A DNA stretch of 55,972 nt from Candidatus Zixiibacteriota bacterium (GTDB lineage Bacteria > UBP14 > UBA6098 > JBKHBT01). Position 1 is the stretch's first letter; every line of letters starts with the position of its first letter. Shown piece by piece: positions 250-36,585 of this stretch. The DNA lies in assembly GCA_046542255.1 (NCBI GenBank), contig JBKHBT010000012.1:1-55972 (forward strand), written 5' to 3'. The notes beneath the pieces are model-generated. The model did not search any database. It was not told where the DNA came from and saw nothing but the letters and a program-made list of their open reading frames with translations. The position numbers and the translations under genes were made by a program.

Positions 250-364
250 AAATACTCTTTTAAAGTCATAATAATATATATAAAATACATAATATATATA
301 CTCAAAAGGCTTTACTGATGTTTTAGCCTGAAAAGTATGACAATGCTCAGCAGCGCATTCTCTG
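250..364 (+). repeat. Copy A of a ~115-bp interspersed repeat family. It has a conserved left end (TACTCTTTTAAAGYCATA), a variable (TA)n-rich middle, and a conserved ~62-nt core (AAAAGGNTTTACTGATGTTTTAGCCTGAAAAGTATGACAATGC..AGCAGCGCATT.TCTG).
   Basis: Near-identical to 25282-25398 (about 4 mismatches across the 62-nt core) and to a degenerate copy at 18112-18228, all in the same orientation. The core contains a 9-bp inverted repeat (GACAATGCG/CGCATTGTC) that is perfect in copy B. Confidence 0.7.
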
Positions 365-16300: not shown

Positions 16301-17692
16301 ATGGAACTCAAGAGATTACTGGTTTTATTTTCTATCATTGCCATCCTCTTATTTGCTTTCGGTTGCCCGGATGATGATGATGATGATGACAATAATAGCA
16401 ATGATGATGACTCAGCCATGTACGAAGCATCTGGCGCAGTCGATTCTAATGGAGAATTATTGCTTGAAACAGAAAGTGGCGCAAAGCTTGCAATTCCTAG
16501 ATATGCTGTACCATTGACTATCGAAGAAGAAACAGGCACAATGGTCTTTTCTATAGAAAGAGATTTGTCTATAAGCCCTGTTTTGGATGAAGGGGCATCG
16601 AGTGCTTCTGATGTCTATCGCTTTGGGCCTGATGGTTTCGTTTTTGCTTCACCAGTTAGAGTAACAATACCTATCGATAATTTCGATGAGTCCAAGGAAT
16701 ATGAGATTTATCGTATTAATCAGACAACAGGTGAAGCCGAAGTATATTCATCATTTATCGATGAAGAAAATGCCACGATTTCAGCATATACATATCATCT
16801 TTCACCCTGGGCAATCTCAGAAAGAGAATACCGGGAACGCTCTGGTGGGGCCGTTCGCATTTCAAATACGAGTTCGACACATGCACTTCATGTCAGCGTA
16901 GCGGATTTCGTACCGGCCTATCCCATGGCAGATACAGTTACCTGTTCGCTCTATGATGCATATTTTCCGGCATTAGGCTCCGGTTCTTTTGTGGCCAGTA
17001 GCGGACTTTGGCATCTTCCACAGGGCACATATACCCTATGTTTCCGCATGTCGGAACAGGGCACTTTCATGAATCCACCAGGCGATCCTGTTCGCTGGTA
17101 TGAGCATGATGTTATAATTGATCAGCCCTGGTCAAGAACCAGTCCAAATATTTCGGATGAGTTCTCATATGGCCGTCCATCCGATGATGCTGTCGATGGC
17201 TTTTGTGATTGCCGTCCAGAACCGACTCCTTCAGCTGGAACCGGCGATGTTCAGGTAACATTGACATGGCATAATTCTGATCCGATAGACCTCGACCTCT
17301 GGATAATTGAACCAGATAGTACAGTATGTAATTATGCTACAACCCCAACTGCAAGCGGTGGCACTTTAGATAGAGACAATCTCTGTGGATCAACCTATAT
17401 CAATGGAAGGCCCGAGAATATCTTCTGGAGCTCCGCACCTGAAGGTACATATCGCGTTCAAGTTGACTGGTTTAGCGATTGTGGCAATGGCATGAGTTCA
17501 CAGGGCTATGATGTCAGAATTGTAAATGGTTCAGATGTCAGGACATTCTCAGGAACAATCCAGGCAGAAGAGACAATCGATATTGCAACATTTACCGTAT
17601 CAAGGCCTTCATTAGCAAAATCTTCGGGTAATTCGATATTCTATATCGGCCAGAAGACAGAAAGAATTGCCGAAAGGCCACCGAAATATTAA
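16301..17692 (+). CDS. Secreted or lipoprotein with a poly-Asp linker and a C-terminal proprotein-convertase P-domain-like beta-sandwich
   Basis: Signal peptide ending in FGC, followed by a D7NNSND3 tract. The C-terminus DLDLWIIEPDSTVC...GTYRVQVDW fits the P-domain/PPC pattern. Confidence 0.5.
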   Translation: MELKRLLVLFSIIAILLFAFGCPDDDDDDDNNSNDDDSAMYEASGAVDSNGELLLETESGAKLAIPRYAVPLTIEEETGTMVFSIERDLSISPVLDEGASSASDVYRFGPDGFVFASPVRVTIPIDNFDESKEYEIYRINQTTGEAEVYSSFIDEENATISAYTYHLSPWAISEREYRERSGGAVRISNTSSTHALHVSVADFVPAYPMADTVTCSLYDAYFPALGSGSFVASSGLWHLPQGTYTLCFRMSEQGTFMNPPGDPVRWYEHDVIIDQPWSRTSPNISDEFSYGRPSDDAVDGFCDCRPEPTPSAGTGDVQVTLTWHNSDPIDLDLWIIEPDSTVCNYATTPTASGGTLDRDNLCGSTYINGRPENIFWSSAPEGTYRVQVDWFSDCGNGMSSQGYDVRIVNGSDVRTFSGTIQAEETIDIATFTVSRPSLAKSSGNSIFYIGQKTERIAERPPKY

Positions 17693-17842
17693 GTGTTTAG
17701 CTAGATTTCATTTTTTTCTGAAAAAAAAAAGAAAAAAGCTTGCATAATAAATTATACGCCCTATATTAATAATGATAAGTTCTTATTAATGTAGTTTTGT
17801 TTCGGGGTTAGGGCACTGATACTAAATTTTTTAAGAACTTAG

Positions 17843-17872
17843 GGCGGCTTTTATAAAGCCGCCTTTTTTATT
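17843..17872 (+). terminator. Rho-independent terminator
   Basis: Stem GGCGGCTTT/AAAGCCGCC followed by TTTTTTATT. Confidence 0.65.
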
Positions 17873-18111
17873 ATATGGGGCTTTAGTCTGAAGTTCCACA
17901 GCCATTTCAAAAGCTACCCCAATCCACGCAAGGCCTTGCGCTGATTTGGGGGTTCACTTGGCATGACTACATTTCGATTTTCTCGATTAACTCCAGTGCT
18001 TTATGCTGCTTCTTATCTTGCTTGGTGACAGTTTCAAATGTCAGATTCTTGCTTTTTTCATGTATAATTTTGCAAGTGTTTTTCACAATTGTCGATAATG
18101 ATGAAAGAAGT

Positions 18112-18228
18112 GTTTATTTTTTATAGCCATATATTATAGAAAATATATATATTTTATAATATTTTTTGTAATGGTACCACTTATATTTTAGCCAAAAAGT
18201 ATGACAAGACGCAACAGCGCATTGCCTG
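18112..18228 (+). repeat. Copy C (degenerate) of the ~115-bp repeat family
   Basis: TTTATAGCCATATATTATAG...TTTTAGCCAAAAAGTATGACAAGACGCAACAGCGCATTGCCTG aligns with copies A and B. It lies in a convergent intergenic region. Confidence 0.6.
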
Positions 18229-18770
18229 AAGCTGTGATAGGTTTGTTTATCTTCTTCGGAATGCTTTGCTCTGCTGGATTTTTTGGCTTTCGCGCTTATT
18301 ACGGTTTTCAATCTCTGGAATGACCTGTGTTTGTAATAAATTATTTTCATCATAAGAGCTAAAAAGGTATTTCGTTTTTAAATTATCGACAATCGCCCAG
18401 GGCGTGGTCAAAAAGGGGTTATCGAAGATCAAAAAATTCGATTCTATTCGAATTCGAGAAAAAAATATTTGATTCTCCAAGAATCAAACTCATAATAAAT
18501 AATGTCCTATTGTATTCATTAACAACGACTTGCACAGCCCTGCAAAAAGGATAGAAATCGAAGTTCTTTCATGTAAAAATTATTTTGACTGGATAAAACA
18601 GAATCTCAAAATAAATCGTTTTTTAGGGATAAATAGAAATGCAATTGAAACACAGCTCTGGGTTGGAGTTTTCGCATGATCAATTTAAGCTCTTATGAAG
18701 GCAGAAAAGTGATGTGTTTGTTTTGATTCTTCGAGACAGTAGTGAAATGCATAAGAAAAACAATAATAAC

Positions 18771-21700
18771 CTATTTTTGCAAAACTTTCTCCACTACCTC
18801 ACGAAGACATTCCTTAGTATAAGGCTTTACAACTACTTCCTTGAATCCATAATCCGAATAATTTACCAAAACCTCGTCCTCAGCATATCCGCTGGAAACA
18901 ATAACATTTGCATTTTTATCGATTTTTAGTATTTCAGTTATTGTCTCTATTCCGCCTTTTCCACCTGGAATTGTAAGATCCATTATGATAATATCAAAAC
19001 CCTGGCCTTGTTGGTATGCCTTTTGAAAAATCTCGATAGCCTCTTCTCCTGATGCTGCAGTAGCAGTCTCGAAGCCCATGCTGACAAGACGATATTTGGT
19101 AACGCGTCGGACAATTTCTTTATCGTCCATTATCAATGCCCTTTTGCCTTCGAATTTTTTGTGGGGTTTTGGAGTTACTTTGGAATTCTTCTTCTTTTGT
19201 TCTTTTTCTATGGCAGGAATAAGCAGTTCGAAAATCGTACCTTTTCTCGCCGAAGACTTTACCTCGATATAACCCCCATGCTTTTTGATTATGGAATAAA
19301 CCGTTGTCAAGCCAAGCCCGCCTTCAGAATCTTTTGTGCTAAAATAAGGATCGAATATCTTATCGATATGGTTTTCGGAAATACCATGTCCCTCATCTGC
19401 AAATGTTATCTTGATATACTTCCCTGATTGAAATTGGGAGAAATTTTGAACATCGAGTTCAATATTTTCTAAATCTATGTATAAATTACCGCCATCTGGC
19501 ATGGCCTCTTTGGCATTTAATGTTAGATTAGAAAATACCTGCTGAATCTGGCCCTTATCGACATTCGCAATCCAAAGACCATCGGGACAATTATAAACAG
19601 GTTTCACATTGCTACCCGAAAGGTCAAATTGGACGATATCCTTCAGCACCTCGATCAAACGAATATCCTGTTTTACTGGAGCCCCCCCTTTCGAAAATGT
19701 TAGGAGTTGTTTGCTCAGACGCTTTGCCATATCCAATGATGCTTCTGAATCCTGAAGGAATTTCCATGCTGGATGCGATGGCTCGAGATTGTCTTTTACA
19801 ATCGAAAGATTACCAAAAAGGCCCATAAGAATATTATTAAAATCATGAGCGATACCACCTGCCAGAGTTCCGAGACTTTCTAATTTCTGAGTACGAATCC
19901 TTTGATCTTCGAGATTCTTTCTTTCGGTTATATCGCGAACCGTTGCCAATACTTTATCATCCTCGAAAGGAACCATTTGGGCATTGTAAATTTTTTCTTC
20001 TGAACCTTTTAAGAATTTATAGTCGAAAACCCTTTTGTTTTTAGTCTCGATAGTTTTTGCGATGTTTTCTAATATAATTTTCTGCTGTTCTTCTGAAAAA
20101 CCAGCATCCTTGATATTCTTGCCGATTATTTCTTCGGAAGATATAAGCAACTCTTCATCTATCTCGGCTTTGAAATCGATATATGTCCCATAGCTATCGA
20201 GAATAAACATCATCTCTGGCATCGCATCAAGAAGTGCTTGATTTCTATTGTAGGTGATTTCTAATTGCTTCTCCTGTTCCTTTTTTTCGGTAATGTCCCT
20301 AACCATTGAAAGCACCTGCCCTTCGCCACAAGGAACCATTCTTACTTCAAAGAAATGCTGCTTTTCATCTAATATCAGAGAATATTCATAATTTTGATTT
20401 TCCTTGGACTCCAGAGTTTTTATCACTTTCTTTTTGGTTAATTCAGATAGCTTTTTGGGCAAAACCTCATCAATTTTCTTACCAATGAACTCCTTCTCCG
20501 GAACAAGCAGCTTTTCGCTTTGCGGTGCGTGATTATCAATAAATCTGAATTGGTCATCTATTCTAAATAATAAATCGGGAATAGCGGCTAAAGTTGCACT
20601 ATATCTCTTTTCATTTTCACGGATCGCTTCTCGCATCTTGTATTCTTTTGTTACATCTCTAAAAACGAGTACGGTGCCTAAGATATTGCTATTTTTATCT
20701 TTTATGGGAGCTGCTGAATCTGCGATTTGATATTTCTTGCCACTTTTGGAAATAAGGGCAGTATGATTGGCAAGCCCAATAATTTTACCTGTTTGTAATA
20801 CTTTGCCTACCGGATTATCGACTTTTTTCAACGTATTGGAATCTACAATATTAAATACTTCTGTTAATCCTCTTCCAATTGCATCTTCAATCTTCCATTC
20901 AGTTAATTTTTGGGCGATAGGATTCATAGATTCAATATTACCCTTGGTGTCGGTAGTTATAACTGCATCGCCAATAGAATTGAGTGTCGTCTCCAATCGG
21001 TCTCGGCTTTCACTTAGCTGTAATTCGGTTTTTTTACGTTCGGTAATATCATCTATGATAGACAAAATCCTATTATGGCCATCCATCTTCAAGATTTCAG
21101 CAAAGAAAAGTCCGATTAAAATTCCACCGCTTTTCTTTTGTAATTCAACCTCGATACCATCTACTCTGCCCTTTTCTGCTAATTCATTTTTTATTTTTGT
21201 TCTGTTTTCTTGAGAAAGAATCTTCAAGTCAATGGATGTTTTGCCAATTATTTCGGCTCTTTTATAGCCAGTGGTTTTAATAAAATTACTATTAATTTCA
21301 ATATATCTATCTGTATCGATATCCTCGATACACATAAGTAACGGTCCATTATGAAACGCCCTGGAAAACAATTCTTCAGACCTTCTAAGCTCCTTTTCCA
21401 TTTCCTTTCTTTTGCTAATATCTTCAAAAACAGTAACGAAATGCGAGCTATCAGTTGAGAATGCAGAAATGGAAAAATATTTATTAAAAGGTTTGAAATA
21501 GACTTCAAATCGGTAAGGTAGTCCTGTTCGGGCAACTTTAGTGAAGATTTCAAGATAAGGCGGCCTGTCTGTTCCATAGACTTCGGTTGAAAATTTACCA
21601 ACTATATCTTCGGTTCTAAGCTCCAGAATATTTTCATACGCAAGGTTTACATCAGTGATACGATAATCCACTGGATTGCCAAGTTTATCATGGACAATCT

Positions 21701-22226
21701 CGTGGATTGCAACTCCTTCGTTCATATTTTCGTATAGTTTGCGATATTGCTTTTCGCTTTTTTTTATCTTTTCCCGCAAAAGGAAACTATTTGTGCTATC
21801 TCGAAAGACAATCACAACTCCTTTTATTTTTCCAAAACTATCGAATATCGGCGCGCCAGAATCTGAAATATGGTATTTATCACCATTTTTAGAAATTAAA
21901 ATGGCATGATTGGCCATATCGACTACAATACCTTTTTTTAATACTTTTTTTGCAGGAGAATCTATTCGTATGCCGTTTTTAGAATCCACAAGATGCAAAA
22001 TCTTGGATATTTTATGGCCAATAGCATCATCAGCATTCCACCCGGTGAGTCTTTCTGCTTCAGGATTGAGGCCGGTAATAATTTCTTTCGCATCACAAGA
22101 AATGACAGCATCACCCATGGAATTGAGAATCATTCGTAGATTATCGATCTTACTAGATAATGCTTTTATCTTCTCTTTGGCCTGTTGTAAATCGCTAATA
22201 TTCGAATCAATATGACCACTGTCCAT
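18771..22226 (-). CDS. Multi-PAS hybrid sensor histidine kinase with a C-terminal receiver domain
   Basis: Several PAS repeats, HisKA (LAGGIAHDFNNIL), HATPase (GxGLGL) and a receiver domain (RALIMDD...IIMDLTIPG). Confidence 0.85.
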   Translation of the reverse strand: MDSGHIDSNISDLQQAKEKIKALSSKIDNLRMILNSMGDAVISCDAKEIITGLNPEAERLTGWNADDAIGHKISKILHLVDSKNGIRIDSPAKKVLKKGIVVDMANHAILISKNGDKYHISDSGAPIFDSFGKIKGVVIVFRDSTNSFLLREKIKKSEKQYRKLYENMNEGVAIHEIVHDKLGNPVDYRITDVNLAYENILELRTEDIVGKFSTEVYGTDRPPYLEIFTKVARTGLPYRFEVYFKPFNKYFSISAFSTDSSHFVTVFEDISKRKEMEKELRRSEELFSRAFHNGPLLMCIEDIDTDRYIEINSNFIKTTGYKRAEIIGKTSIDLKILSQENRTKIKNELAEKGRVDGIEVELQKKSGGILIGLFFAEILKMDGHNRILSIIDDITERKKTELQLSESRDRLETTLNSIGDAVITTDTKGNIESMNPIAQKLTEWKIEDAIGRGLTEVFNIVDSNTLKKVDNPVGKVLQTGKIIGLANHTALISKSGKKYQIADSAAPIKDKNSNILGTVLVFRDVTKEYKMREAIRENEKRYSATLAAIPDLLFRIDDQFRFIDNHAPQSEKLLVPEKEFIGKKIDEVLPKKLSELTKKKVIKTLESKENQNYEYSLILDEKQHFFEVRMVPCGEGQVLSMVRDITEKKEQEKQLEITYNRNQALLDAMPEMMFILDSYGTYIDFKAEIDEELLISSEEIIGKNIKDAGFSEEQQKIILENIAKTIETKNKRVFDYKFLKGSEEKIYNAQMVPFEDDKVLATVRDITERKNLEDQRIRTQKLESLGTLAGGIAHDFNNILMGLFGNLSIVKDNLEPSHPAWKFLQDSEASLDMAKRLSKQLLTFSKGGAPVKQDIRLIEVLKDIVQFDLSGSNVKPVYNCPDGLWIANVDKGQIQQVFSNLTLNAKEAMPDGGNLYIDLENIELDVQNFSQFQSGKYIKITFADEGHGISENHIDKIFDPYFSTKDSEGGLGLTTVYSIIKKHGGYIEVKSSARKGTIFELLIPAIEKEQKKKNSKVTPKPHKKFEGKRALIMDDKEIVRRVTKYRLVSMGFETATAASGEEAIEIFQKAYQQGQGFDIIIMDLTIPGGKGGIETITEILKIDKNANVIVSSGYAEDEVLVNYSDYGFKEVVVKPYTKECLREVVEKVLQK

Positions 22227-22481
22227 GATTGTCCTAACTTAAGTCTAATTATAAGTTATAGGCTATACCATTTTTTCTTGACACTATTAAAACAATTTTT
22301 TGCTCTTCCTCATTTTAATTATACACAAATTTCCTAAAATGTCAATTTTTTTTACAAATTAATTCATGATAACAAAAATTTTAGAAGGTCTTTGGATACA
22401 ATTGCTCCATCAAAATTTTTCTTTCAATTTAATTCAGATTTTGTATTTTCTATAAAGGTATTTAATATTGAGGATAATTTA

Positions 22482-24905
22482 ATGGATTATAGCAAATTCA
22501 CAAAACAAGAGTTGATAGCGGAAATATTACACCTCGAAGAAAATGAAAAGAAATTGCTCTATCTAATCGAATCGATGACCTTTGGAATTGTCTTTCAAGA
22601 TAAGTCGGGAATAATCATATCCGCAAATAAAATGGCCGAAAAGATACTTGGCCTTTCACTCCAACAGATGCAAGGCCGCAAATCCACAGACCCCAGATGG
22701 AAATCGATACGTGAAGATGGCTCTTCTTTTCCCGGCGAAGAACATCCTGCAATGATTGCTCTGAAAACTGCCGAAAAAGTCCATAATGTCAAAATGGGAG
22801 TAAAAAAGCCTGGCAATCCAGAAATCACATGGATCAATATCAATGCTGTGCCATTATTTCGTGATGGAGAAAATGAGCCTTATCAAGTTTACTCTACTTT
22901 TGAAGATGTAACCCAAACAGTTAACTTTCAAAAAGGGCTACAAAAAAGCCAGAAGATTTTCGAGCTTTTTATGAAACATCTTCCCGGTGCGGTCTTCTTG
23001 AAAAACCAAACAGGTAAATTATTATTCGCAAATGCGACATTTGCAAAATTAATCGGTAAAAACCCAGAAGAAATAATCGGCAAAAATATTGATAGGATGC
23101 TGAATCCTAAAAATGTAGAAGCATTTGCCGAAGAGAATAGAAAAATTATTCTAAATCGCCAACCTATTGTATCCGAGCATGAGTTTACCTGGCAAGGCAA
23201 TACTTCTCATTTCTATAACTATAAATTCCCAATCGAATTAAAAACCGACTTTTTTGACATGCAGCAAAATATACTTATCGGCTCAATAAGTATCGATATA
23301 ACCGATCTAAAACAGATGCAGAACGCATTGGTCGAATCGGAAGAAAAATATAGAAACCTGGTAGAACACACTCCACAGGGCATTTGTACAATCGATGATA
23401 AAGGTATCTATATTTTCATGAATGAAGCAGCGGCAAAAGCCCTGGGCGGACTTCCTAATGATTTCATCGGCAAAAAGATGAATGAGATCTTCCCTGAAGA
23501 AATCGCGAATGAACAGCTATCAGAAATCCATAAGACAATTGAAAAGGGCAAATATCATCAGACAATAAAGCGCTCTTATGTCGCTGGTGAATATAGATGG
23601 TTCGAAGCTAGAATGCAGCCACTTCAAAATGATGAAGACCATTTTGACCGGGTCTTGCTTATCCTTACTGATGTAACAGAAATCAGAAAAGCCGAAAAAG
23701 AGAGAGAAGAATTACGCGCTAAATTGCAAAGAGCTCAAAAAATGGAAGCTCTGGGAACATTGGCTGGTGGAGTTGCCCATGATCTTAATAATATTCTCTC
23801 GGGAATCGTTGGTTACCCAGAAATCCTAATGATGGATATCGAAGATCTAAAAAATAAAACTAGTAACTACCTCTTTTTAGAAAAATTAGATGACATTCAC
23901 AAGACTATTGATATGATTAATAATTCAGGGCAAAGAGCTGCAAATGTGGTTCATGATCTTCTTACTCTTGCAAGAAGAGGAGTAAATATCAGCAAACCGG
24001 TTAATATCAATGATATAGTAAAATATTTCATCCATTCACCCGAATATGCAAAAATCCTAAAAGAAAATCCTGGAATCGAAGTAGAAACTCGACTGAATGA
24101 GAACACTCAAAATATCATTGGTTCGAAAGCGCATCTAAATAAAACATTATTGAACCTTGTCTTAAATGCCTTCGAGGCAATGCATAAGACTGGAACGATA
24201 AAAATTGAAACGAGAAATCAAACAATAATCGGCAACAAAAATGGATATGAGATAATACCCGAAGGTAGTTATTCTTTATTGATTGTTAAAGATGAAGGCA
24301 CTGGTATCAAAGATGAAGATTTGGAAAGAATTTTCGAACCTTTTTATACTCGCAAAATAATGGGCAGAAGTGGCACAGGGTTAGGAATGGCAATTGTATG
24401 GGGTACTGTTAAGGACCATAATGGATACATAGATATCGATACAAAAATAGGTTATGGCAGCACTTTCACAATATATCTACCTGTATCAGATCAAGACATA
24501 AAAAATGACAATGTACCAGAAAGTAAAGAAAATCTATATGGAAAAGGCCAAAAAATTCTCATAGTCGATGATATCGAAGCCCAAAGGAAACTGGCGAGTG
24601 ATATTTTATCGAGATTTGGTTATGAGACCATTACTGCAAGTAGCGGTGAAGAAGCGATTGAAAAATCTAAAAAACAGAAATTTGACCTCGTCATTCTCGA
24701 TATGATAATGAATCCTGGAATAGATGGCCTCGATACATATAAAATACTTCTCGAAATAAATCCTGAACAAAAAATCATTATTGCAAGTGGTTATTCTGAA
24801 AACGACAGAGTGAAAAAAGCCCTTGAATTAGGAGCGAGTAAATATATCAGAAAACCATATAGCATAATGCAATTGGTCAAAGATGTCAAAGAATCAATGT
24901 TTTGA
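22482..24905 (+). CDS. Multi-PAS hybrid sensor histidine kinase with a C-terminal receiver domain
   Basis: PAS repeats, HisKA (LAGGVAHDLNNIL), HATPase and a receiver domain (KILIVDD...LVILDMIMNPG). GAGGA RBS lies 8 nt before the ATG at 22482. The ORF is open from 22392. Confidence 0.85.
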   Translation: MDYSKFTKQELIAEILHLEENEKKLLYLIESMTFGIVFQDKSGIIISANKMAEKILGLSLQQMQGRKSTDPRWKSIREDGSSFPGEEHPAMIALKTAEKVHNVKMGVKKPGNPEITWININAVPLFRDGENEPYQVYSTFEDVTQTVNFQKGLQKSQKIFELFMKHLPGAVFLKNQTGKLLFANATFAKLIGKNPEEIIGKNIDRMLNPKNVEAFAEENRKIILNRQPIVSEHEFTWQGNTSHFYNYKFPIELKTDFFDMQQNILIGSISIDITDLKQMQNALVESEEKYRNLVEHTPQGICTIDDKGIYIFMNEAAAKALGGLPNDFIGKKMNEIFPEEIANEQLSEIHKTIEKGKYHQTIKRSYVAGEYRWFEARMQPLQNDEDHFDRVLLILTDVTEIRKAEKEREELRAKLQRAQKMEALGTLAGGVAHDLNNILSGIVGYPEILMMDIEDLKNKTSNYLFLEKLDDIHKTIDMINNSGQRAANVVHDLLTLARRGVNISKPVNINDIVKYFIHSPEYAKILKENPGIEVETRLNENTQNIIGSKAHLNKTLLNLVLNAFEAMHKTGTIKIETRNQTIIGNKNGYEIIPEGSYSLLIVKDEGTGIKDEDLERIFEPFYTRKIMGRSGTGLGMAIVWGTVKDHNGYIDIDTKIGYGSTFTIYLPVSDQDIKNDNVPESKENLYGKGQKILIVDDIEAQRKLASDILSRFGYETITASSGEEAIEKSKKQKFDLVILDMIMNPGIDGLDTYKILLEINPEQKIIIASGYSENDRVKKALELGASKYIRKPYSIMQLVKDVKESMF

Positions 24906-25000: not shown

Positions 25001-25309
25001 ATGAAAAAACTTCTACCGCTCATTTTGTTAATACCAATAGTCTTTAGCCAAACAGAAATCAACTATAATCCAGCACACTACTTTGTCGGCAATATTTATA
25101 CAAACCGCACTGTCGAAGAAGTCAAATTTTCGATAGGTTCGACCGGAGGCCCACAGAAATGGGATTTCACTACTTTTCCTGATGGTGATGAATCTGATTT
25201 CGAGGTAGTCGAATACTCTTCTTCTCTACCCGAAGTCGCCAGTTGCGCTATGACTCCTAATTATGTGATTTACAATCACACAATTACTCTTTTAAAGCCA
25301 TATATATAG
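25001..25309 (+). CDS. N-terminal fragment (signal peptide plus ~80 aa) of a T9SS cargo protein. Its last codons and stop lie inside repeat copy B.
   Basis: Signal peptide MKKLLPLILLIPIVFSQ. The ORF terminates at TAG within the repeat's (TA)n segment. Confidence 0.45.
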   Translation: MKKLLPLILLIPIVFSQTEINYNPAHYFVGNIYTNRTVEEVKFSIGSTGGPQKWDFTTFPDGDESDFEVVEYSSSLPEVASCAMTPNYVIYNHTITLLKPYI

Positions 25310-25398
25310 CATATATATAATACTTAATATATTTAGCAAAAGGATTTACTGATGTTTTAGCCTGAAAAGTATGACAATGCGGAGCAGCGCATTGTCTG
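25282..25398 (+). repeat. Copy B of the ~115-bp repeat family, inserted between the two halves of a T9SS cargo gene
   Basis: Best-conserved copy, with a perfect 9-bp hairpin GACAATGCG-GAGCAG-CGCATTGTC. Confidence 0.7.
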
Positions 25399-26174
25399 AT
25401 ACTTCTGAAATCGAAGGATATGGATATATGCATCAAAACTCTTCCCGAGTTATTGGACTCGGGCTTTGGGGAGAAATGACTGACGATGGTTCGACATATT
25501 CACTAACAGCCTTTAATGAAGACTACAGCCCTTCGAATACATTCCCGATGAATTATGGAGACAGCTGGATCGAAACTTCTTATGGAACAGGCGAAATAAA
25601 TTATATCGTTACCATGGACTATGAATACTGGGACACAAGCTATTACGAAATCGATGCATGGGGACAGATTATTTTACCGATAGGCACTTTCGATGCATTA
25701 CGAGTAAAAAAGCGTCATCATAGGCATCAGGTTTCTGACCATTTTCTTTTTGGATTCGATAAATTCGAAAGAGAATTTGGTTGGCAATGGTACTGCTATG
25801 AAGTCGGCTTTGCTGGTTCATGGATGGGCCCAAAAGACACCCTGGATAATCTACCCGATTCGACATTTACGATAGGCAAGCTTAGCTATCAGATTGCAAA
25901 TTCAATGCTCTCCATTTCTGAAAAAGAAGCAAAGCCGGCGAAAGTTGAGATTTTAACATATCCTAATCCATTTAATTCATCGATTTCGATCCTTACGGAT
26001 GATAATGCAGATATATCGATTTTCGATTTGAATGGCAAGTGTATATTGCGAAATAGCTTGCCTTCAGGGGTTTTTAGATGGCAACCAAAAGGCGATTTAA
26101 CTTCCGGGATTTATATTATCGAGATAGAATCCCATAATGGCCGTATCCAAAAGCAAGTATTCTATATCGGATAG
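25371..26174 (+). CDS. C-terminal fragment of a secreted protein with a T9SS C-terminal sorting domain. It has no signal peptide of its own.
   Basis: C-terminus LTYPNPFNSSISI...DISIFDLNGKCI...GIYIIEIE. The annotated ATG (ATGACAATG) lies inside the repeat core. Confidence 0.5.
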   Translation: MTMRSSALSDTSEIEGYGYMHQNSSRVIGLGLWGEMTDDGSTYSLTAFNEDYSPSNTFPMNYGDSWIETSYGTGEINYIVTMDYEYWDTSYYEIDAWGQIILPIGTFDALRVKKRHHRHQVSDHFLFGFDKFEREFGWQWYCYEVGFAGSWMGPKDTLDNLPDSTFTIGKLSYQIANSMLSISEKEAKPAKVEILTYPNPFNSSISILTDDNADISIFDLNGKCILRNSLPSGVFRWQPKGDLTSGIYIIEIESHNGRIQKQVFYIG

Positions 26175-28474: not shown

Positions 28475-29401
28475 ATGAAGAATTTAATGCTATTTACAAT
28501 ATTAATTGGTATTTTTAACCTAATAGGTGCAGATTTGCCTGATAATGCCGGTACAAGCAGTTTCCCATTTCTAAAGAATATCCAAAGTACAAGAAGCGAG
28601 GCTATGGGGTCGGCATATTGCGGACTGCCGGCCGAGAATCCCTATGCTCTTGATAATCCTGCTCTATTGCCTTTTGCAAATAGAAATGCAGGCTTTTCAT
28701 ATAAAAACTTATGGGGTTTCGCAAATGGTGCTACGGCCTATTATATGCAGAGCAAAGAGGAAACCAATGGATTTGGTTTTTACGCGCATTATATCGGTTA
28801 TGGCAAAGTTAAAGAAACTGATTTTGAGGGTAATGTGCTGGGCGAGCTATCGCCTTCCGATATGGTTCTTGCCGGAGGTTACGGCCATAGGTTCACTAAA
28901 AGCTTCTCTGTGGGGGGAATTGGAAAGCTCATCTATGAAAATGCTGGGGATTTGAATGCTTCCGGGATTGCCCTTGATGCCGGACTATTGTATCGCTTTA
29001 TTAGAGCAAGAGCACAATTGGGTTTTATTGTCAAGAATCTGGGGATGCAGTTATCAGCTTTTGGCGATGAGACATACCCACTCCCTATGCAAATAGGTTT
29101 TGGCGGGAGTTCGAGAATACCCGGATTGCCGCTTCTTTTGTCCGCACAGGGTGATTACCTTGCTGATGACGGCTTTATGATTGGTGCCGGTGCAGAAATA
29201 TTAGCACTTGGGCCAATAAAGCCCCGAATCGGCTATAGAATGATGCCCAAAATCGATTCCGACCTCGCTGAAAACGAAAACAAAAAAGGACTTTCGGCCG
29301 GATTCGGCATCGAAGTGGATAGCTTCAAATTCGACTATGCACTTCGGCATTACGGAGTATTAGGACTGACGCATAACCTGGCTCTGGAATATCGATTCTA
29401 A
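28475..29401 (+). CDS. Putative outer-membrane beta-barrel protein (PorP/PorQ/UPF0164-like)
   Basis: Signal peptide, alternating amphipathic Gly/aromatic-rich strands, and a C-terminal YRF (terminal Phe). Family assignment is uncertain. Confidence 0.4.
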   Translation: MKNLMLFTILIGIFNLIGADLPDNAGTSSFPFLKNIQSTRSEAMGSAYCGLPAENPYALDNPALLPFANRNAGFSYKNLWGFANGATAYYMQSKEETNGFGFYAHYIGYGKVKETDFEGNVLGELSPSDMVLAGGYGHRFTKSFSVGGIGKLIYENAGDLNASGIALDAGLLYRFIRARAQLGFIVKNLGMQLSAFGDETYPLPMQIGFGGSSRIPGLPLLLSAQGDYLADDGFMIGAGAEILALGPIKPRIGYRMMPKIDSDLAENENKKGLSAGFGIEVDSFKFDYALRHYGVLGLTHNLALEYRF

Positions 29402-29555
29402 TTACATCGATTCTGTTTTATCGGAATGTAAACTTTTCTATTTGCATAATATTAAGAAACTTATAGCTCTAGAACCTTTGGCCTATAATGGTGATATTCA
29501 GTAACTATATAAACAAGGCTACCGTTCTCGATACATAGCTCCCAGCCTAATACAC

Positions 29556-29667
29556 CGCTACAAAGCTCTACCCCCCACTGCCCTCGCTACAAAGCTCTGC
29601 CCCCCACTGCCCTCGCTACAAAGCTCTGCTCCCCACTGCCCTCGCTACAAAGCTCTGCTTTGTAGCG
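29556..29667. repeat. Tandem array of about 3.9 copies of a GC-rich 29-bp unit (CGCTACAAAGCTCTGCCCCCCACTGCCCT). The last partial unit forms the hairpin CGCTACAAAG-CTCTG-CTTTGTAGCG.
   Basis: Units at 29556-29584, 29585-29613 and 29614-29642, with a partial unit at 29643-29667. Only 2-3 variable positions. No spacers, so this is not a CRISPR array. Confidence 0.8.
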
Positions 29668-29908
29668 CAAGCTTTCCGAAGCTCCGCTTCTATTCTTTAC
29701 TAATACCATAAAGAAGCAGAGCTTCTCAAGGAGGATAAAAATAAAATTTATTTACTTTACATAAATTTTAACACTGAATCTGGGTAATTAAGGCTAAAGC
29801 TCAAATCTGACAATCTCTTAAATCCATTCTCAATCTTATGAAAGTGTTTTGGTAGATATCTTAATATGTCTTGACGAAAGCCGGTGGCGATTTTATTTTA
29901 CAGATGCT

Positions 29909-35028: not shown

Positions 35029-36585
35029 ATGAAAAAGGCTATTTTCGTTTTGATTTTAATTTTAAGTGTAAATCTAATATTCGCAGCAGAAGCAGACACT
35101 CTTCCACCATTTATGATAAATTTCGCACATTCTGCGCCTGCACCTTCGGCACAGACATTTTTCCAGGCCGACCTTATCGAGGATCTACCCACCGTTGGAA
35201 TAGTAGAATCATACCTCGCATATTCAACTGATAATTGGTCGACGAAAACCGAAATTACTGCAACCGATATGGGAATCTCTGGTCATCAAACCTATGAAGC
35301 AGCCGTAACTAATCCTTCCGCTGGAAATGTCGATTATTATTTCTATTTTGAATCCGATGACAAATGGGCTGGCCAATGCCCTCTTTATGATGGCACAGCA
35401 TCACCATCTATACCTGAGAACTATATGTTGTATTGTGGGTATGATGGCGCTGGCACTGATTCCACCTTGCCTGATCATGATGAAGCAGAAGACTTAGATC
35501 TTCTCGAATACTGGTTTGGAATGTCTAATGGCCGTTTTTATGGCAAGATGCGTAATGCAACCGGTAGTTGGCATTTAGAAAATGGAAGTTTAATGTTTGG
35601 TGGAAAACATGTTTTCGGTTATGGTATTGCTATCAATAACCCGGACAGGCCGGATGAAGATTATATGTACCTTATGGCCCAATGTGGTAATTTATCCGTT
35701 TCTGGTATGGTCGATATTAGCCCTGGAGTTTTAGAGGCCTATACTGCTGAGGGTGCCGAAGAAGTCTGGAATATAGGCGATGCAGATATAACAACTACTG
35801 GTGATATTTTGGAGATATCTGCTCCTATAAGCACGTTTACCGGAGGAGATCATTTTGGCGGAACTACCCCAGCAAGTGGATTTTATCAGGTAACTGCTTT
35901 TACAATGTATCTTTATGCATCTCTTAGCGGTCAGGATTTTTCATTTGTTGAAGCTACGAAAATTGGTAAGCTTTATATTAATAATTTCAGCAGCCCGGAA
36001 GCATGGGAATATACAGTCGGCGGTGCAAATACTGCACCTCTTCTTTCCGGGCCCGGTTCTGATGATGAAGAGATCTGGGTAACCTATACCGATGCTGATA
36101 ATAATCAAGCAGTAGATGCATTTGTATCGATAGACGGCGGAAGCCCGATAGAGATGTCAACAGTCGATCATGTATATGATGATGGCGCTGTTTATAGATG
36201 CACCGTCGGCGACCTTTTCTATGGTGCCGAACTCGATTTTGATTTCTCTGATGGAATGGCTGATGCTACTATGGATTATTCTGTTGGTATCGATGAGCAC
36301 AAAGTAGTTTCATTACCAGAAAATCTCGAACTCGAATGTGCTCCGAACCCATTTAATCCCGCAGCCCAGATTAGCTTTAATATAGAAAATGACGATTTTG
36401 TAGAACTCGGCATCTACAATACAAATGGACATAAAATCACCAATCTTATCGTATCAGACTTAGAAGCAGGTGTACATAGCACAAGATTCGATGCATCTTC
36501 ATTTGATTTAGCTGCTGGAGTATATTTGGTTAATTTAAGAACTTCTAATGCAAGCGTTTCAGAAAAGATAATCTATATTAAATAG
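35029..36585 (+). CDS. Secreted protein with a T9SS C-terminal sorting domain
   Basis: Signal peptide. C-terminus CAPNPFNPAAQISF...LGIYNTNGHKI...GVYLVNLRT. Confidence 0.6.
   Translation: MKKAIFVLILILSVNLIFAAEADTLPPFMINFAHSAPAPSAQTFFQADLIEDLPTVGIVESYLAYSTDNWSTKTEITATDMGISGHQTYEAAVTNPSAGNVDYYFYFESDDKWAGQCPLYDGTASPSIPENYMLYCGYDGAGTDSTLPDHDEAEDLDLLEYWFGMSNGRFYGKMRNATGSWHLENGSLMFGGKHVFGYGIAINNPDRPDEDYMYLMAQCGNLSVSGMVDISPGVLEAYTAEGAEEVWNIGDADITTTGDILEISAPISTFTGGDHFGGTTPASGFYQVTAFTMYLYASLSGQDFSFVEATKIGKLYINNFSSPEAWEYTVGGANTAPLLSGPGSDDEEIWVTYTDADNNQAVDAFVSIDGGSPIEMSTVDHVYDDGAVYRCTVGDLFYGAELDFDFSDGMADATMDYSVGIDEHKVVSLPENLELECAPNPFNPAAQISFNIENDDFVELGIYNTNGHKITNLIVSDLEAGVHSTRFDASSFDLAAGVYLVNLRTSNASVSEKIIYIK

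What the first reader, a model, noticed from the sequence alone, without database searches (positions are those of the whole stretch)
25001..26174. T9SS cargo gene apparently split by insertion of the 115-bp repeat
ORF 25001-25309 has a signal peptide but no C-terminal domain, and its last roughly seven codons and TAG stop lie inside repeat copy B. ORF 25371-26174 ends in a canonical T9SS CTD but has no signal peptide, and its annotated ATG (ATGACAATG) is itself inside the repeat core. A T9SS substrate needs both a Sec signal and the CTD. The simplest reading is one ancestral gene interrupted by the element. With plausible element boundaries (25281-25398, 118 bp) the two halves return to the same reading frame after excision, but the boundaries are not certain.
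Basis: partly seen in the sequence, partly recalled or inferred. Interest (0 to 1): 0.6.

Follow-up and report, generated by a model that had tools for sequence, protein, structure and literature searches.

The report
Secreted-protein gene broken by small repeat
A gene for a secreted protein in an uncultured Zixibacteria genome has been cut in two by a 109-base insertion of a small repeat that occurs elsewhere in the genome, so it is most likely a recent pseudogene that databases list as two genes.

Summary
ORF 25001-25309 carries a signal peptide. ORF 25371-26174 carries a T9SS type-A C-terminal sorting domain (CTD). They are the two halves of one ancestral gene of about 354 codons.

Six full-length homologues (337-385 aa, single ORFs in UBP14, Zodletone and other MAGs) align without a gap across the junction once 25289-25397 (109 bp) is removed: window ...PNYVIYNHTIT|DTSEIEGYGY against P0003 ...PNYIVYYHTVTDTSEIEGWGY. 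The break falls in a beta-turn inside a single YmcC-like beta domain.

The inserted DNA is copy B of a roughly 112-bp dispersed repeat (conserved block 25287-25398). I found four copies: three in the window and one on another contig of the same species. They are 74-93% identical, with sharp edges. The repeat has no terminal inverted repeats, has two internal hairpins, and is flanked by CT...CTG, with the CT duplicated at this site.

The same insertion is present in three assemblies, and no intact allele was found. The halves show no further decay, and the "ATG" of ORF2 is element-derived and lacks a ribosome-binding site.

Verdict: a recent inactivating insertion of an unclassified MITE-like element. 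This is ordinary biology. The useful outputs are an annotation correction and the description of a new small repeat.

The parts
25001..25288 (+). 5' fragment of the ancestral gene: Sec signal peptide (MKKLLPLILLIPIVFS|Q) plus the first ~80 mature residues (codons 1-96)
   Evidence: Aligns to residues 1-~100 of P0003-P0009 at 35-47% identity. Hydropathy 3.05. SD-like AGGAAG lies upstream.
25289..25397 (+). Net 109-bp insertion (copy B of the dispersed repeat). It supplies ORF1's last 6 codons and its stop, and ORF2's first 9 codons
   Evidence: Gapless homologue alignment after deletion. There is a 2-nt CT slide ambiguity (25287-25395 to 25289-25397), read directly from the sequence.
25287..25398 (+). 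Conserved repeat block, copy B: CTCTTTTAAAG...GCGCATTGTCTG (112 bp)
   Evidence: In the four-copy alignment A5, identity is 93% to D, 90% to A and 75% to C inside the block, and drops to 30-58% outside it.
25297..25337 (.). AT-rich inverted repeat near the left end (GCCATATATAT / ATATATTTAGC)
   Evidence: The equivalent pair is 91% complementary in copy D.
25373..25396 (.). GC-rich hairpin at the right end (GACAATGCG-N6-CGCATTGTC). On the minus strand it is followed by ATACTTTTCA and looks like a terminator
   Evidence: It is perfect in B and imperfect in A, C and D, with no compensatory changes.
25398..26174 (+). 3' fragment of the ancestral gene (codons 97-354 plus stop): the rest of the beta domain, a linker and the CTD
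   Evidence: 37-49% identity to homologues. phmmer E 2.6e-58 to P0003.
25959..26159 (+). T9SS type-A C-terminal sorting domain
   Evidence: PF18962 E 2.6e-9 and TIGR04183 E 4e-10, ORF2 residues 197-263.
255..364 (+). Repeat copy A, intergenic, 179 bp upstream of the gene at 543
   Evidence: nhmmer E 8e-34; alignment.
18116..18228 (+). Repeat copy C, the most diverged, in a 1.08-kb gene-free gap between convergent genes
   Evidence: nhmmer E 4e-31; ORF list.

Best explanation
One ancestral gene encoded a T9SS cargo of about 354 aa: a Sec signal peptide, a single YmcC/DUF3108-like beta domain of unknown function, a linker and a type-A CTD. A small non-coding dispersed repeat of about 107-112 bp inserted into it, between the codons for T96 and D97, with the dinucleotide CT present on both sides.

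The insertion shifts the frame and brings a TAG six codons in. The first fragment would therefore be exported but is a 4-strand stub. The second fragment has the CTD but no signal peptide and no ribosome-binding site, so it cannot reach the periplasm or the T9SS. The locus is therefore a loss-of-function allele, a young pseudogene, which automatic annotation has recorded as two genes.

Shown here: one gene was interrupted, where exactly the break lies, that the inserted DNA is a multi-copy repeat, and that the insertion is present in three assemblies.

Inferred: that the repeat is, or was, mobile in the manner of a non-autonomous element, that the gene product is lost, and that the event is recent.
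For: - Homologues of 337-385 aa span both halves. Homology to ORF2 starts at its residue 8-9 and at residue 84-102 of the homologue.
- The alignment across the junction is gapless after deleting 25289-25397, and the invariant T and D are restored.
- Four genome loci (UBP14 UBA6098, Zodletone, Guaymas, one uncultured) match query residues 1/4/14 to 353, or to 297 for L006, whose match runs to within 19 bases of the end of the stored locus. Two of them were checked as single ORFs.
- In the AlphaFold model of homologue P0005 (pLDDT 93.2), the junction sits in a 3-residue turn between strands 94-101 and 105-115 of one beta domain spanning 39-271.
- The repeat has four copies with sharp boundaries. 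Three are intergenic and one lies on another contig, in the opposite orientation to its neighbouring genes.
- The same insertion is in GCA_964582205.1 (99.97% identical over 18 kb with a few SNPs). In Logan unitigs of SRR11308339, one contig runs 25 nt into the left side of the element and another starts 29 nt before its right edge.
- ORF2's ATG has no SD pairing (+0.3 kcal/mol, against a median of -5.5 for 30 long ORFs).
- The fused protein shows no excess of private changes at otherwise invariant columns (5, against 2-8 in the homologues). This points to a recent event.
Against: - Loss of function is inferred, not measured. There are no transcript or protein data.
- Both fragments are perfectly intact. 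That is also what one would see if function were restored in some way, such as excision in part of the population.
- The three assemblies may derive from the same or related samples, so fixation in nature is not established.
- Mobility of the repeat rests on four copies and one reconstructed empty site. No partner transposase was seen.
- The repeat was not found in any other organism.
Confidence: 0.85

Rival explanations
1. The insertion is a reversible switch. The element excises precisely, for example by a recombinase acting on the flanking CT dinucleotides. The cargo gene would then be on in some cells and off in others, as in phase variation.
For: - Removing one CT plus the 107 bp between the two CTs restores the ancestral codons exactly.
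- Both halves are undecayed.
- All four copies are flanked by CT...CTG. IS110-type recombinases use a conserved CT core in donor and target (PMC11208160).
Against: - No intact allele is in the 15-billion-protein collection, by exact look-up or by a junction-peptide search. Neither test is read-level.
- All three assemblies carry the insertion.
- No recombinase was seen near any copy.
- Lack of decay is equally explained by a recent event.
Confidence: 0.06
2. The element supplies a promoter and a start codon, so the C-terminal 267-aa protein is made on its own and has a function.
For: The element carries ATGACA at its right end in all copies, and an ORF runs out of the element in copies A (52 aa), C (40 aa) and B (267 aa).
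Against: - The ATG has no SD, unlike most genes of this genome.
- No sigma-70-like promoter was found on the + strand in the element.
- Other frames are equally open in the T-rich flanks of A and C, so those ORFs are a composition effect.
- The product would lack a signal peptide and four strands of its single beta domain. A CTD is useless without Sec export (established T9SS knowledge).
- The element-encoded codons differ non-synonymously between copies.
Confidence: 0.03
3. This is an assembly artefact: a repeat wrongly placed inside an intact gene.
For: - Repeats are classic sites of misassembly.
- Logan contigs break inside the element.
Against: - Each junction is independently contained in a unitig that extends 25-29 nt into the element.
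- Two MAG assemblies that differ by SNPs and by a tandem-repeat copy number have the identical structure.
- The flanks abut at adjacent codons with a CT duplication, which is the signature of a real insertion.
Confidence: 0.02
4. The gene is read through the interruption at the RNA or ribosome level, by splicing or by translational bypass from the ACT codon before the element to the ACT codon after it.
For: - Identical ACT codons lie just before the element (25286-25288) and just after it (25401-25403).
- A stable hairpin is present.
Against: - 109-115 nt is far beyond known bypass gaps. The T4 gene 60 gap is 50 nt (from my own knowledge).
- There is no stop codon directly after the take-off codon.
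- A landing at 25401 would drop the invariant D97.
- Rfam gives no intron or ribozyme match.
- The fold z-scores of copies A and C are unremarkable.
- The same element sits in intergenic DNA in both orientations relative to genes.
Confidence: 0.01

Closest known systems
Bacterial MITEs and small dispersed repeats that disrupt or sit between genes (Correia/NEMIS of Neisseria, RUP of Streptococcus pneumoniae, ERIC/IRU of enterobacteria)
   Same: About 100-150 bp, non-coding, several dispersed copies at 74-93% identity, mostly intergenic, internal hairpins, and occasional insertion into a gene with loss of function.
   Different: There are no terminal inverted repeats. The flanking duplication is CT rather than the TA typical of Correia and RUP. 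No related full-length IS has been identified. The repeat is known so far from one Zixibacteria species only.
IS200/IS605-family ends and their non-autonomous derivatives (palindrome-associated transposable elements)
   Same: No terminal inverted repeats, a hairpin close to each end, no long target duplication, and a short conserved sequence at the left flank (A/T-CT in copies A, B and D).
   Different: A 2-nt duplication or shared core is present. The spacing between hairpin and end differs from IS608. The G after the right end is conserved in all four copies, which the single-flank target model does not predict. No TnpA gene was seen.
IS110-family bridge-RNA elements (IS621)
   Same: No terminal inverted repeats, and a CT dinucleotide on both sides of the element (CT core in donor and target, PMC11208160).
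   Different: 112 bp is too short to encode a bridge RNA. The 7 nt left of CT are not conserved among sites (A against B 5/7, D against either 1/7). No DEDD recombinase was seen.
Rickettsia palindromic elements (RPE) inserted in protein-coding genes
   Same: A small repeat found inside a coding sequence.
   Different: RPEs insert in frame and are translated as part of the protein. This element is 109 nt (not a multiple of 3) and introduces a stop after six codons.
T9SS type-A cargo proteins with a YmcC-like / DUF3108-like beta domain (structures 3fzx BF2203, 4fvs BDI_3050)
   Same: The reconstructed protein has a signal peptide followed by Gln, one all-beta domain and a Por_Secre_tail CTD. Its homologue's model matches 3fzx and 4fvs (Foldseek E 6e-5 to 1e-4, probability 1.0).
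   Different: Sequence identity to the solved structures is 10-13% and TM-scores are 0.41-0.47 normalised to the target. Function is unknown for both. The solved proteins are not CTD cargos.

Membership tests
T9SS type-A cargo (reconstructed gene) | C-terminal Por_Secre_tail / TIGR04183 sorting domain | tested here: met
   PF18962 37.7 bits (cut-off 27) and TIGR04183 39.5 bits (cut-off 23) at ORF2 residues 197-263. 40 of 43 family members also match.
T9SS type-A cargo (reconstructed gene) | N-terminal Sec signal peptide on the same polypeptide | tested here: not met
   The signal-like N-terminus is on ORF1 only (hydropathy 3.05 against 0.74). It is separated from the CTD by a frameshift and a stop. 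It is met only in the in-silico reconstruction and in the homologues. No dedicated signal-peptide predictor was available.
T9SS type-A cargo (reconstructed gene) | The host encodes T9SS machinery | tested here: met
   A PorV/PorQ family protein (NF033709, 137 bits, cut-off 90) is at 28475-29401. A second CTD protein is at 35029-36585. The core PorKLMN/Sov genes were not searched for.
MITE (non-autonomous IS derivative) | Short, non-coding and in multiple dispersed copies | tested here: met
   112 bp, four copies on two contigs, 74-93% identity. Stops in all + strand frames.
MITE (non-autonomous IS derivative) | Terminal inverted repeats | tested here: not met
   The inverted-repeat search finds only internal hairpins. 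The ends CTCTTTTAAAG and CATTGTCTG are not complementary.
MITE (non-autonomous IS derivative) | Target-site duplication | tested here: inconclusive
   At copy B the ancestral ACT-GAT site now has CT on both sides. Copies A and D are also flanked by CT...CT. The identical dinucleotide at every copy could be a target preference, a crossover core or part of the element.
MITE (non-autonomous IS derivative) | A related autonomous element with the same ends | not testable with these tools
   Only about 76 kb of this genome could be read. Collection scans for the element found nothing outside the species.
IS200/IS605-derived element | Subterminal hairpins at both ends, no TIR | tested here: met
   Hairpins at 25297-25337 and 25373-25396, and no TIR. 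The GC hairpin is imperfect in three of the four copies.
IS200/IS605-derived element | Insertion 3' of a fixed tetra- or pentanucleotide without duplication, with a Y1 TnpA partner | tested here: inconclusive
   The left flanks end ATACT, TTACT and GATCT. Three informative sites are too few. No TnpA was seen.
IS110 / bridge-RNA element | CT core flanking the element | tested here: met
   CT on both sides in copies A, B and D. The feature is defined in PMC11208160.
IS110 / bridge-RNA element | Conserved target flanks matching a bridge-RNA guide, with the bridge RNA encoded in the element end | tested here: not met
   The seven bases left of CT are AGAAATA, ACAATTA and GAATGAT. The element is 112 bp, while the IS621 left end alone is 191 bp (PMC11208160).
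Rickettsia palindromic element type (in-frame coding insert) | The insert keeps the reading frame and is translated | tested here: not met
   109 nt is 1 mod 3, and a TAG follows six codons after the junction.

The most novel reading that the evidence does not exclude
The 112-bp repeat is a non-autonomous member of a family moved by a site-specific recombinase that exchanges strands at a CT dinucleotide, either IS110-like or a small serine/tyrosine recombinase. Insertion would then be precisely reversible, and the element would work as an on/off switch for a T9SS surface or secreted protein in Zixibacteria.
Probability: 0.06. Interest if true: 0.55.

Novelty: new member of a known kind. Interest (0 to 1): 0.25.

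Why it matters
There are three practical consequences.

First, two GenBank proteins are fragments of one pseudogene and should not be treated as separate families or as a complete cargo. They are MFP4458586.1 ("hypothetical protein") and MFP4458587.1 ("T9SS type A sorting domain-containing protein").

Second, the case gives a clean, homologue-defined empty site for a previously undescribed small repeat of Candidatus Zixiibacteriota. This fixes the insertion to the nucleotide and shows the CT duplication, which is a starting point for finding the enzyme that moves it.

Third, it defines a small family of about 350-aa T9SS cargos with a YmcC-like beta domain in FCB-group candidate phyla.

None of this overturns current understanding. 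Gene disruption by small repeats is common.

Tried and rejected
- **Frame test alone.** All 1036 deletions of length 1 mod 3 in the scanned range give a continuous ORF, so the test does not discriminate.
- **Word-indexed search with the fused protein.** It found only the same-species fragment and a CTD-only hit. The exhaustive phmmer search was needed.
- **Element core pattern in the genome and metagenome collections.** 0 and 0 matches.
- **Relaxed 19-nt pattern.** It gave 40 loci, but all score 17.4 bits or less against the element profile, compared with 103-129 bits for true copies. They are chance hits. There were 0 hits in viral contigs.
- **Rfam.** Only two tRNAs pass the gathering threshold in the window. 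In E-value mode, nothing credible lies over the element.
- **Plasmid and phage BLAST of the element.** No match.
- **Conserved RNA structure.** The fold z-scores are -1.1 to -2.9, and the differences in the hairpin between copies are not compensatory. I did not pursue this further.
- **The idea that the ORFs leaving copies A and C are real small genes.** Rejected, because other frames and the opposite strand are equally open there.
- **Synteny with the closest homologue, P0003.** Its neighbours are unrelated, so it is a family member rather than a positional orthologue.
- **Search for an intact allele.** The exact fused sequence is not in the collection. The junction peptide retrieves only the ORF1 fragment.
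- **Literature on Zixibacteria and T9SS.** No papers found.

Full report
**1. The observation**

The window has ORF 25001-25309 (102 aa) and ORF 25371-26174 (267 aa) on the + strand, in different frames (25001 is 2 mod 3, 25371 is 0 mod 3).

ORF1 begins MKKLLPLILLIPIVFSQ. It has a strongly hydrophobic core (11-residue hydropathy 3.05) and an AGGAAG ribosome-binding site upstream.

ORF2 matches the T9SS sorting domain at residues 197-263: PF18962 E 2.6e-9 and TIGR04183 E 4e-10, both above their curated cut-offs. It has no hydrophobic N-terminus (0.74).

Between and overlapping the two ORFs lies a repeat with two further copies in the window, all on the + strand. Copy A is at about 243-368 and copy C at about 18103-18233. 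The nhmmer E-values are 4e-39 to 4e-31, and no match is expected by chance.

**2. Is it one gene?**

The frame argument alone is weak. Every deletion of length 1 mod 3 with ends anywhere in 25255-25309 and 25360-25419 gives one ORF. The decisive evidence comes from relatives.

An exhaustive phmmer search of the ORF2 core (without its CTD) against 1.84 billion representatives gave 58 hits. The best non-self hits (P0003-P0007 and P0009, E 2.6e-58 to 2e-31) are 337-385 aa long. Their homology starts at ORF2 residue 7-9 and at residue 84-102 of the homologue. So homology begins exactly where the repeat ends, and each homologue has about 90 extra N-terminal residues, which is the size of ORF1.

Those N-termini align to ORF1 at 35-47% identity, and the C-terminal parts align to ORF2 at 37-49%.

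Deleting 25289-25397 (109 bp) gives ...CAMTPNYVIYNHTIT-DTSEIEGYGYMH.... P0003 reads ...CIMVPNYIVYYHTVT-DTSEIEGWGYFH.... None of the seven aligned sequences has a gap within 15 residues of the junction, and T96 and D97 are invariant columns.

A scan of one genome per species found four loci: UBP14 UBA6098, a Zodletone MAG, a Guaymas MAG and one uncultured. They match query residues 1/4/14 to 353, except L006, which matches 4-297 because its match runs to within 19 bases of the end of the stored locus. I confirmed two of these on raw DNA as single ORFs of 371 and 368 aa. P0008 (245 aa) starts without Met and looks like a fragment cut by a contig end. No relative is naturally split.

**3. What the gene encoded**

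An AlphaFold model of homologue P0005, built on a 43-sequence alignment, is confident (mean pLDDT 93.2). It shows a signal helix, one continuous all-beta domain (strands from 39 to 271), a short disordered linker and a beta-sandwich CTD.

The junction maps to the 3-residue turn between strands 94-101 and 105-115. The insertion therefore splits a single domain into four strands and about nine strands.

Foldseek against the PDB gives the YmcC-like fold: 3fzx at E 6.3e-5 and 4fvs at E 6.9e-5, both with probability 1.0. The CTD matches a T9SS substrate complex (8glk_D, TM 0.71). Seven family members also hit Pfam DUF3108_like. The function of the domain is unknown.

The residue after the predicted signal peptide is an invariant Gln (Q17). 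This fits the N-terminal Gln rule described for Bacteroidetes exported proteins (from my own knowledge).

The host has T9SS parts nearby: a PorV/PorQ family gene at 28475-29401 (137 bits, cut-off 90) and another CTD protein at 35029-36585.

**4. The inserted element**

I translated the stop-free minus-strand frame of copy B and searched it as a protein. This retrieved a 61-aa spurious ORF (P0062, 86% identity) on a different contig of the same species. That is a fourth copy (D), at L051 10058-10172 between fmt and a DUF116 gene, in the opposite orientation to those genes.

The four-copy alignment shows a sharply bounded block from CTCTTTTAAAG to GCGCATTGTCTG. In the window this is 25287-25398, 112 bp. 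B-D identity is 93% without gaps, B-A is 90% and C is about 74%. Flank identity is 30-58%.

The net insertion is 109 bp and the block is 112 bp, and the reconstructed empty site is ...ATTA-CT-GAT.... So the CT is present on both sides of 107 internal bases. Copies A and D also carry CT...CT, the right-hand CTG is shared by all four copies, and the left end of copy C has decayed to AT.

I cannot tell from these data whether the CT is a 2-bp target duplication, a CT^G target, or a crossover core.

The element has no terminal inverted repeats. It has an AT-rich inverted repeat near the left end (25297-25337) and a 9-bp GC-rich hairpin at the right end (25373-25396). That hairpin is perfect in B only, and the differences between copies are not compensatory. 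On the minus strand it is followed by ATACTTTTCA and scores as terminator-like.

There is no Rfam family and no plasmid or phage match. There is no credible match in the genome, metagenome or viral collections.

Logan unitigs of SRR11308339 break inside the element, as expected for a multi-copy repeat.

About 76 kb was read and it holds four copies. If that density held genome-wide, the genome would carry on the order of a hundred or more copies. That is an extrapolation.

**5. Is the insertion real and fixed?**

The organism is a Candidatus Zixiibacteriota MAG. NCBI lists the two halves as MFP4458586.1 (hypothetical protein) and MFP4458587.1 (T9SS type A sorting domain-containing protein).

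A second assembly, GCA_964582205.1, is 99.97% identical over 18 kb. It differs by five SNPs and by one unit of a 29-bp tandem repeat, and it carries the identical insertion.

Logan unitigs contain each junction separately.

The exact reconstructed protein is not in the 15-billion-protein collection. A junction-spanning peptide retrieves only the ORF1 fragment.

These are not read-level tests, and the three assemblies may share samples.

**6. Consequence and mechanism**

ORF1's frame runs into the element and stops after LLKPYI.

ORF2's annotated ATG and its first nine codons are element sequence. That ATG has no SD pairing (+0.3 kcal/mol, in the weakest tenth of 30 long ORFs whose median is -5.5). 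No sigma-70-like promoter was found on the + strand in the element.

A CTD without Sec export cannot reach the T9SS (established knowledge of the pathway), and a beta domain missing four strands is unlikely to fold. The most likely state is a null allele.

The fused sequence has no more private substitutions at otherwise invariant columns than its relatives (5 against 2-8), so the insertion is evolutionarily young.

The alternatives cannot be excluded without reads or expression data, but each has specific evidence against it. They are reversible excision, independent expression of ORF2, bypass or splicing, and assembly artefact (see the rival explanations).

**7. Comparison with known systems**

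Functionally this is the familiar case of a MITE-like small repeat knocking out a gene.

As to family membership, the element fails the TIR criterion of classical MITEs. It shares with IS200/IS605-type ends the lack of TIRs and the subterminal hairpins. It shares with IS110 elements the flanking CT (PMC11208160). However, it lacks conserved target flanks and is too short to encode a bridge RNA. It is not an in-frame coding insert of the Rickettsia RPE type. It is best left as an unclassified small dispersed repeat of Zixibacteria.

**8. Verdict**

Novelty is low: a new member of a known kind. The value lies in the annotation correction and in a nucleotide-exact insertion site for a new repeat.

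Noticed in passing
window 29556-29658 (wider 29527-29687): A 29-bp tandem repeat (CGCTACAAAGCTCTGCCCCCCACTGCCCT, 3.6 copies, 97% matches) lies in the gap between the PorQ-like gene and the next gene. The GCA_964582205.1 assembly has one more unit, so the copy number is variable within the species.
   Followed up: partly
window 17693-18770: A 1.08-kb stretch without any convincing ORF lies between convergent genes (16301-17692 on +, 18771-22226 on -). It contains the most diverged repeat copy C. It is unusually long for this otherwise tightly packed contig and could hold a decayed gene or an RNA.
   Followed up: partly
L051 10058-10172 (GCA_964582205.1 contig CAZORF010000003.1): A fourth repeat copy lies 8 bp after the fmt stop and before a DUF116 gene in a def-fmt operon. 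It is oriented so that its hairpin plus T-run reads as a terminator-like signal in the direction of transcription. A spurious 61-aa ORF (P0062) was called across it.
   Followed up: partly
window 18771-22226 (-) and 22392-24905 (+): Two large PAS/HisKA/HATPase/response-regulator hybrid kinases are divergently arranged immediately upstream of the split gene. An 80-nt, 74% inverted match (19812-19891 against 23734-23813) shows that they are paralogues.
   Followed up: no
window 28475-29401: A PorV/PorQ family T9SS outer-membrane protein gene (NF033709, 137 bits) lies 2.3 kb downstream of the broken cargo gene, after LapA-domain, LapB-like TPR and SPOR-domain genes.
   Followed up: partly
window 16301-17692: The predicted lipoprotein-like protein has a run of acidic residues right after the Cys (CPDDDDDDDNNSNDDD). 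It has no NCBIfam match.
   Followed up: no
family alignment A3, column of Q17: In the fused protein and in all six homologues, an invariant Gln immediately follows the signal-peptide hydrophobic core (..SQT/AQT/SQE..). This suggests cleavage before Gln, as described for Bacteroidetes exported proteins.
   Followed up: no
The word-indexed protein search with the full fused query did not return the 102-aa ORF1 protein (P0060), although that protein is in the collection and was returned for a shorter query. Negative results from that tool should be read with caution.
   Followed up: no
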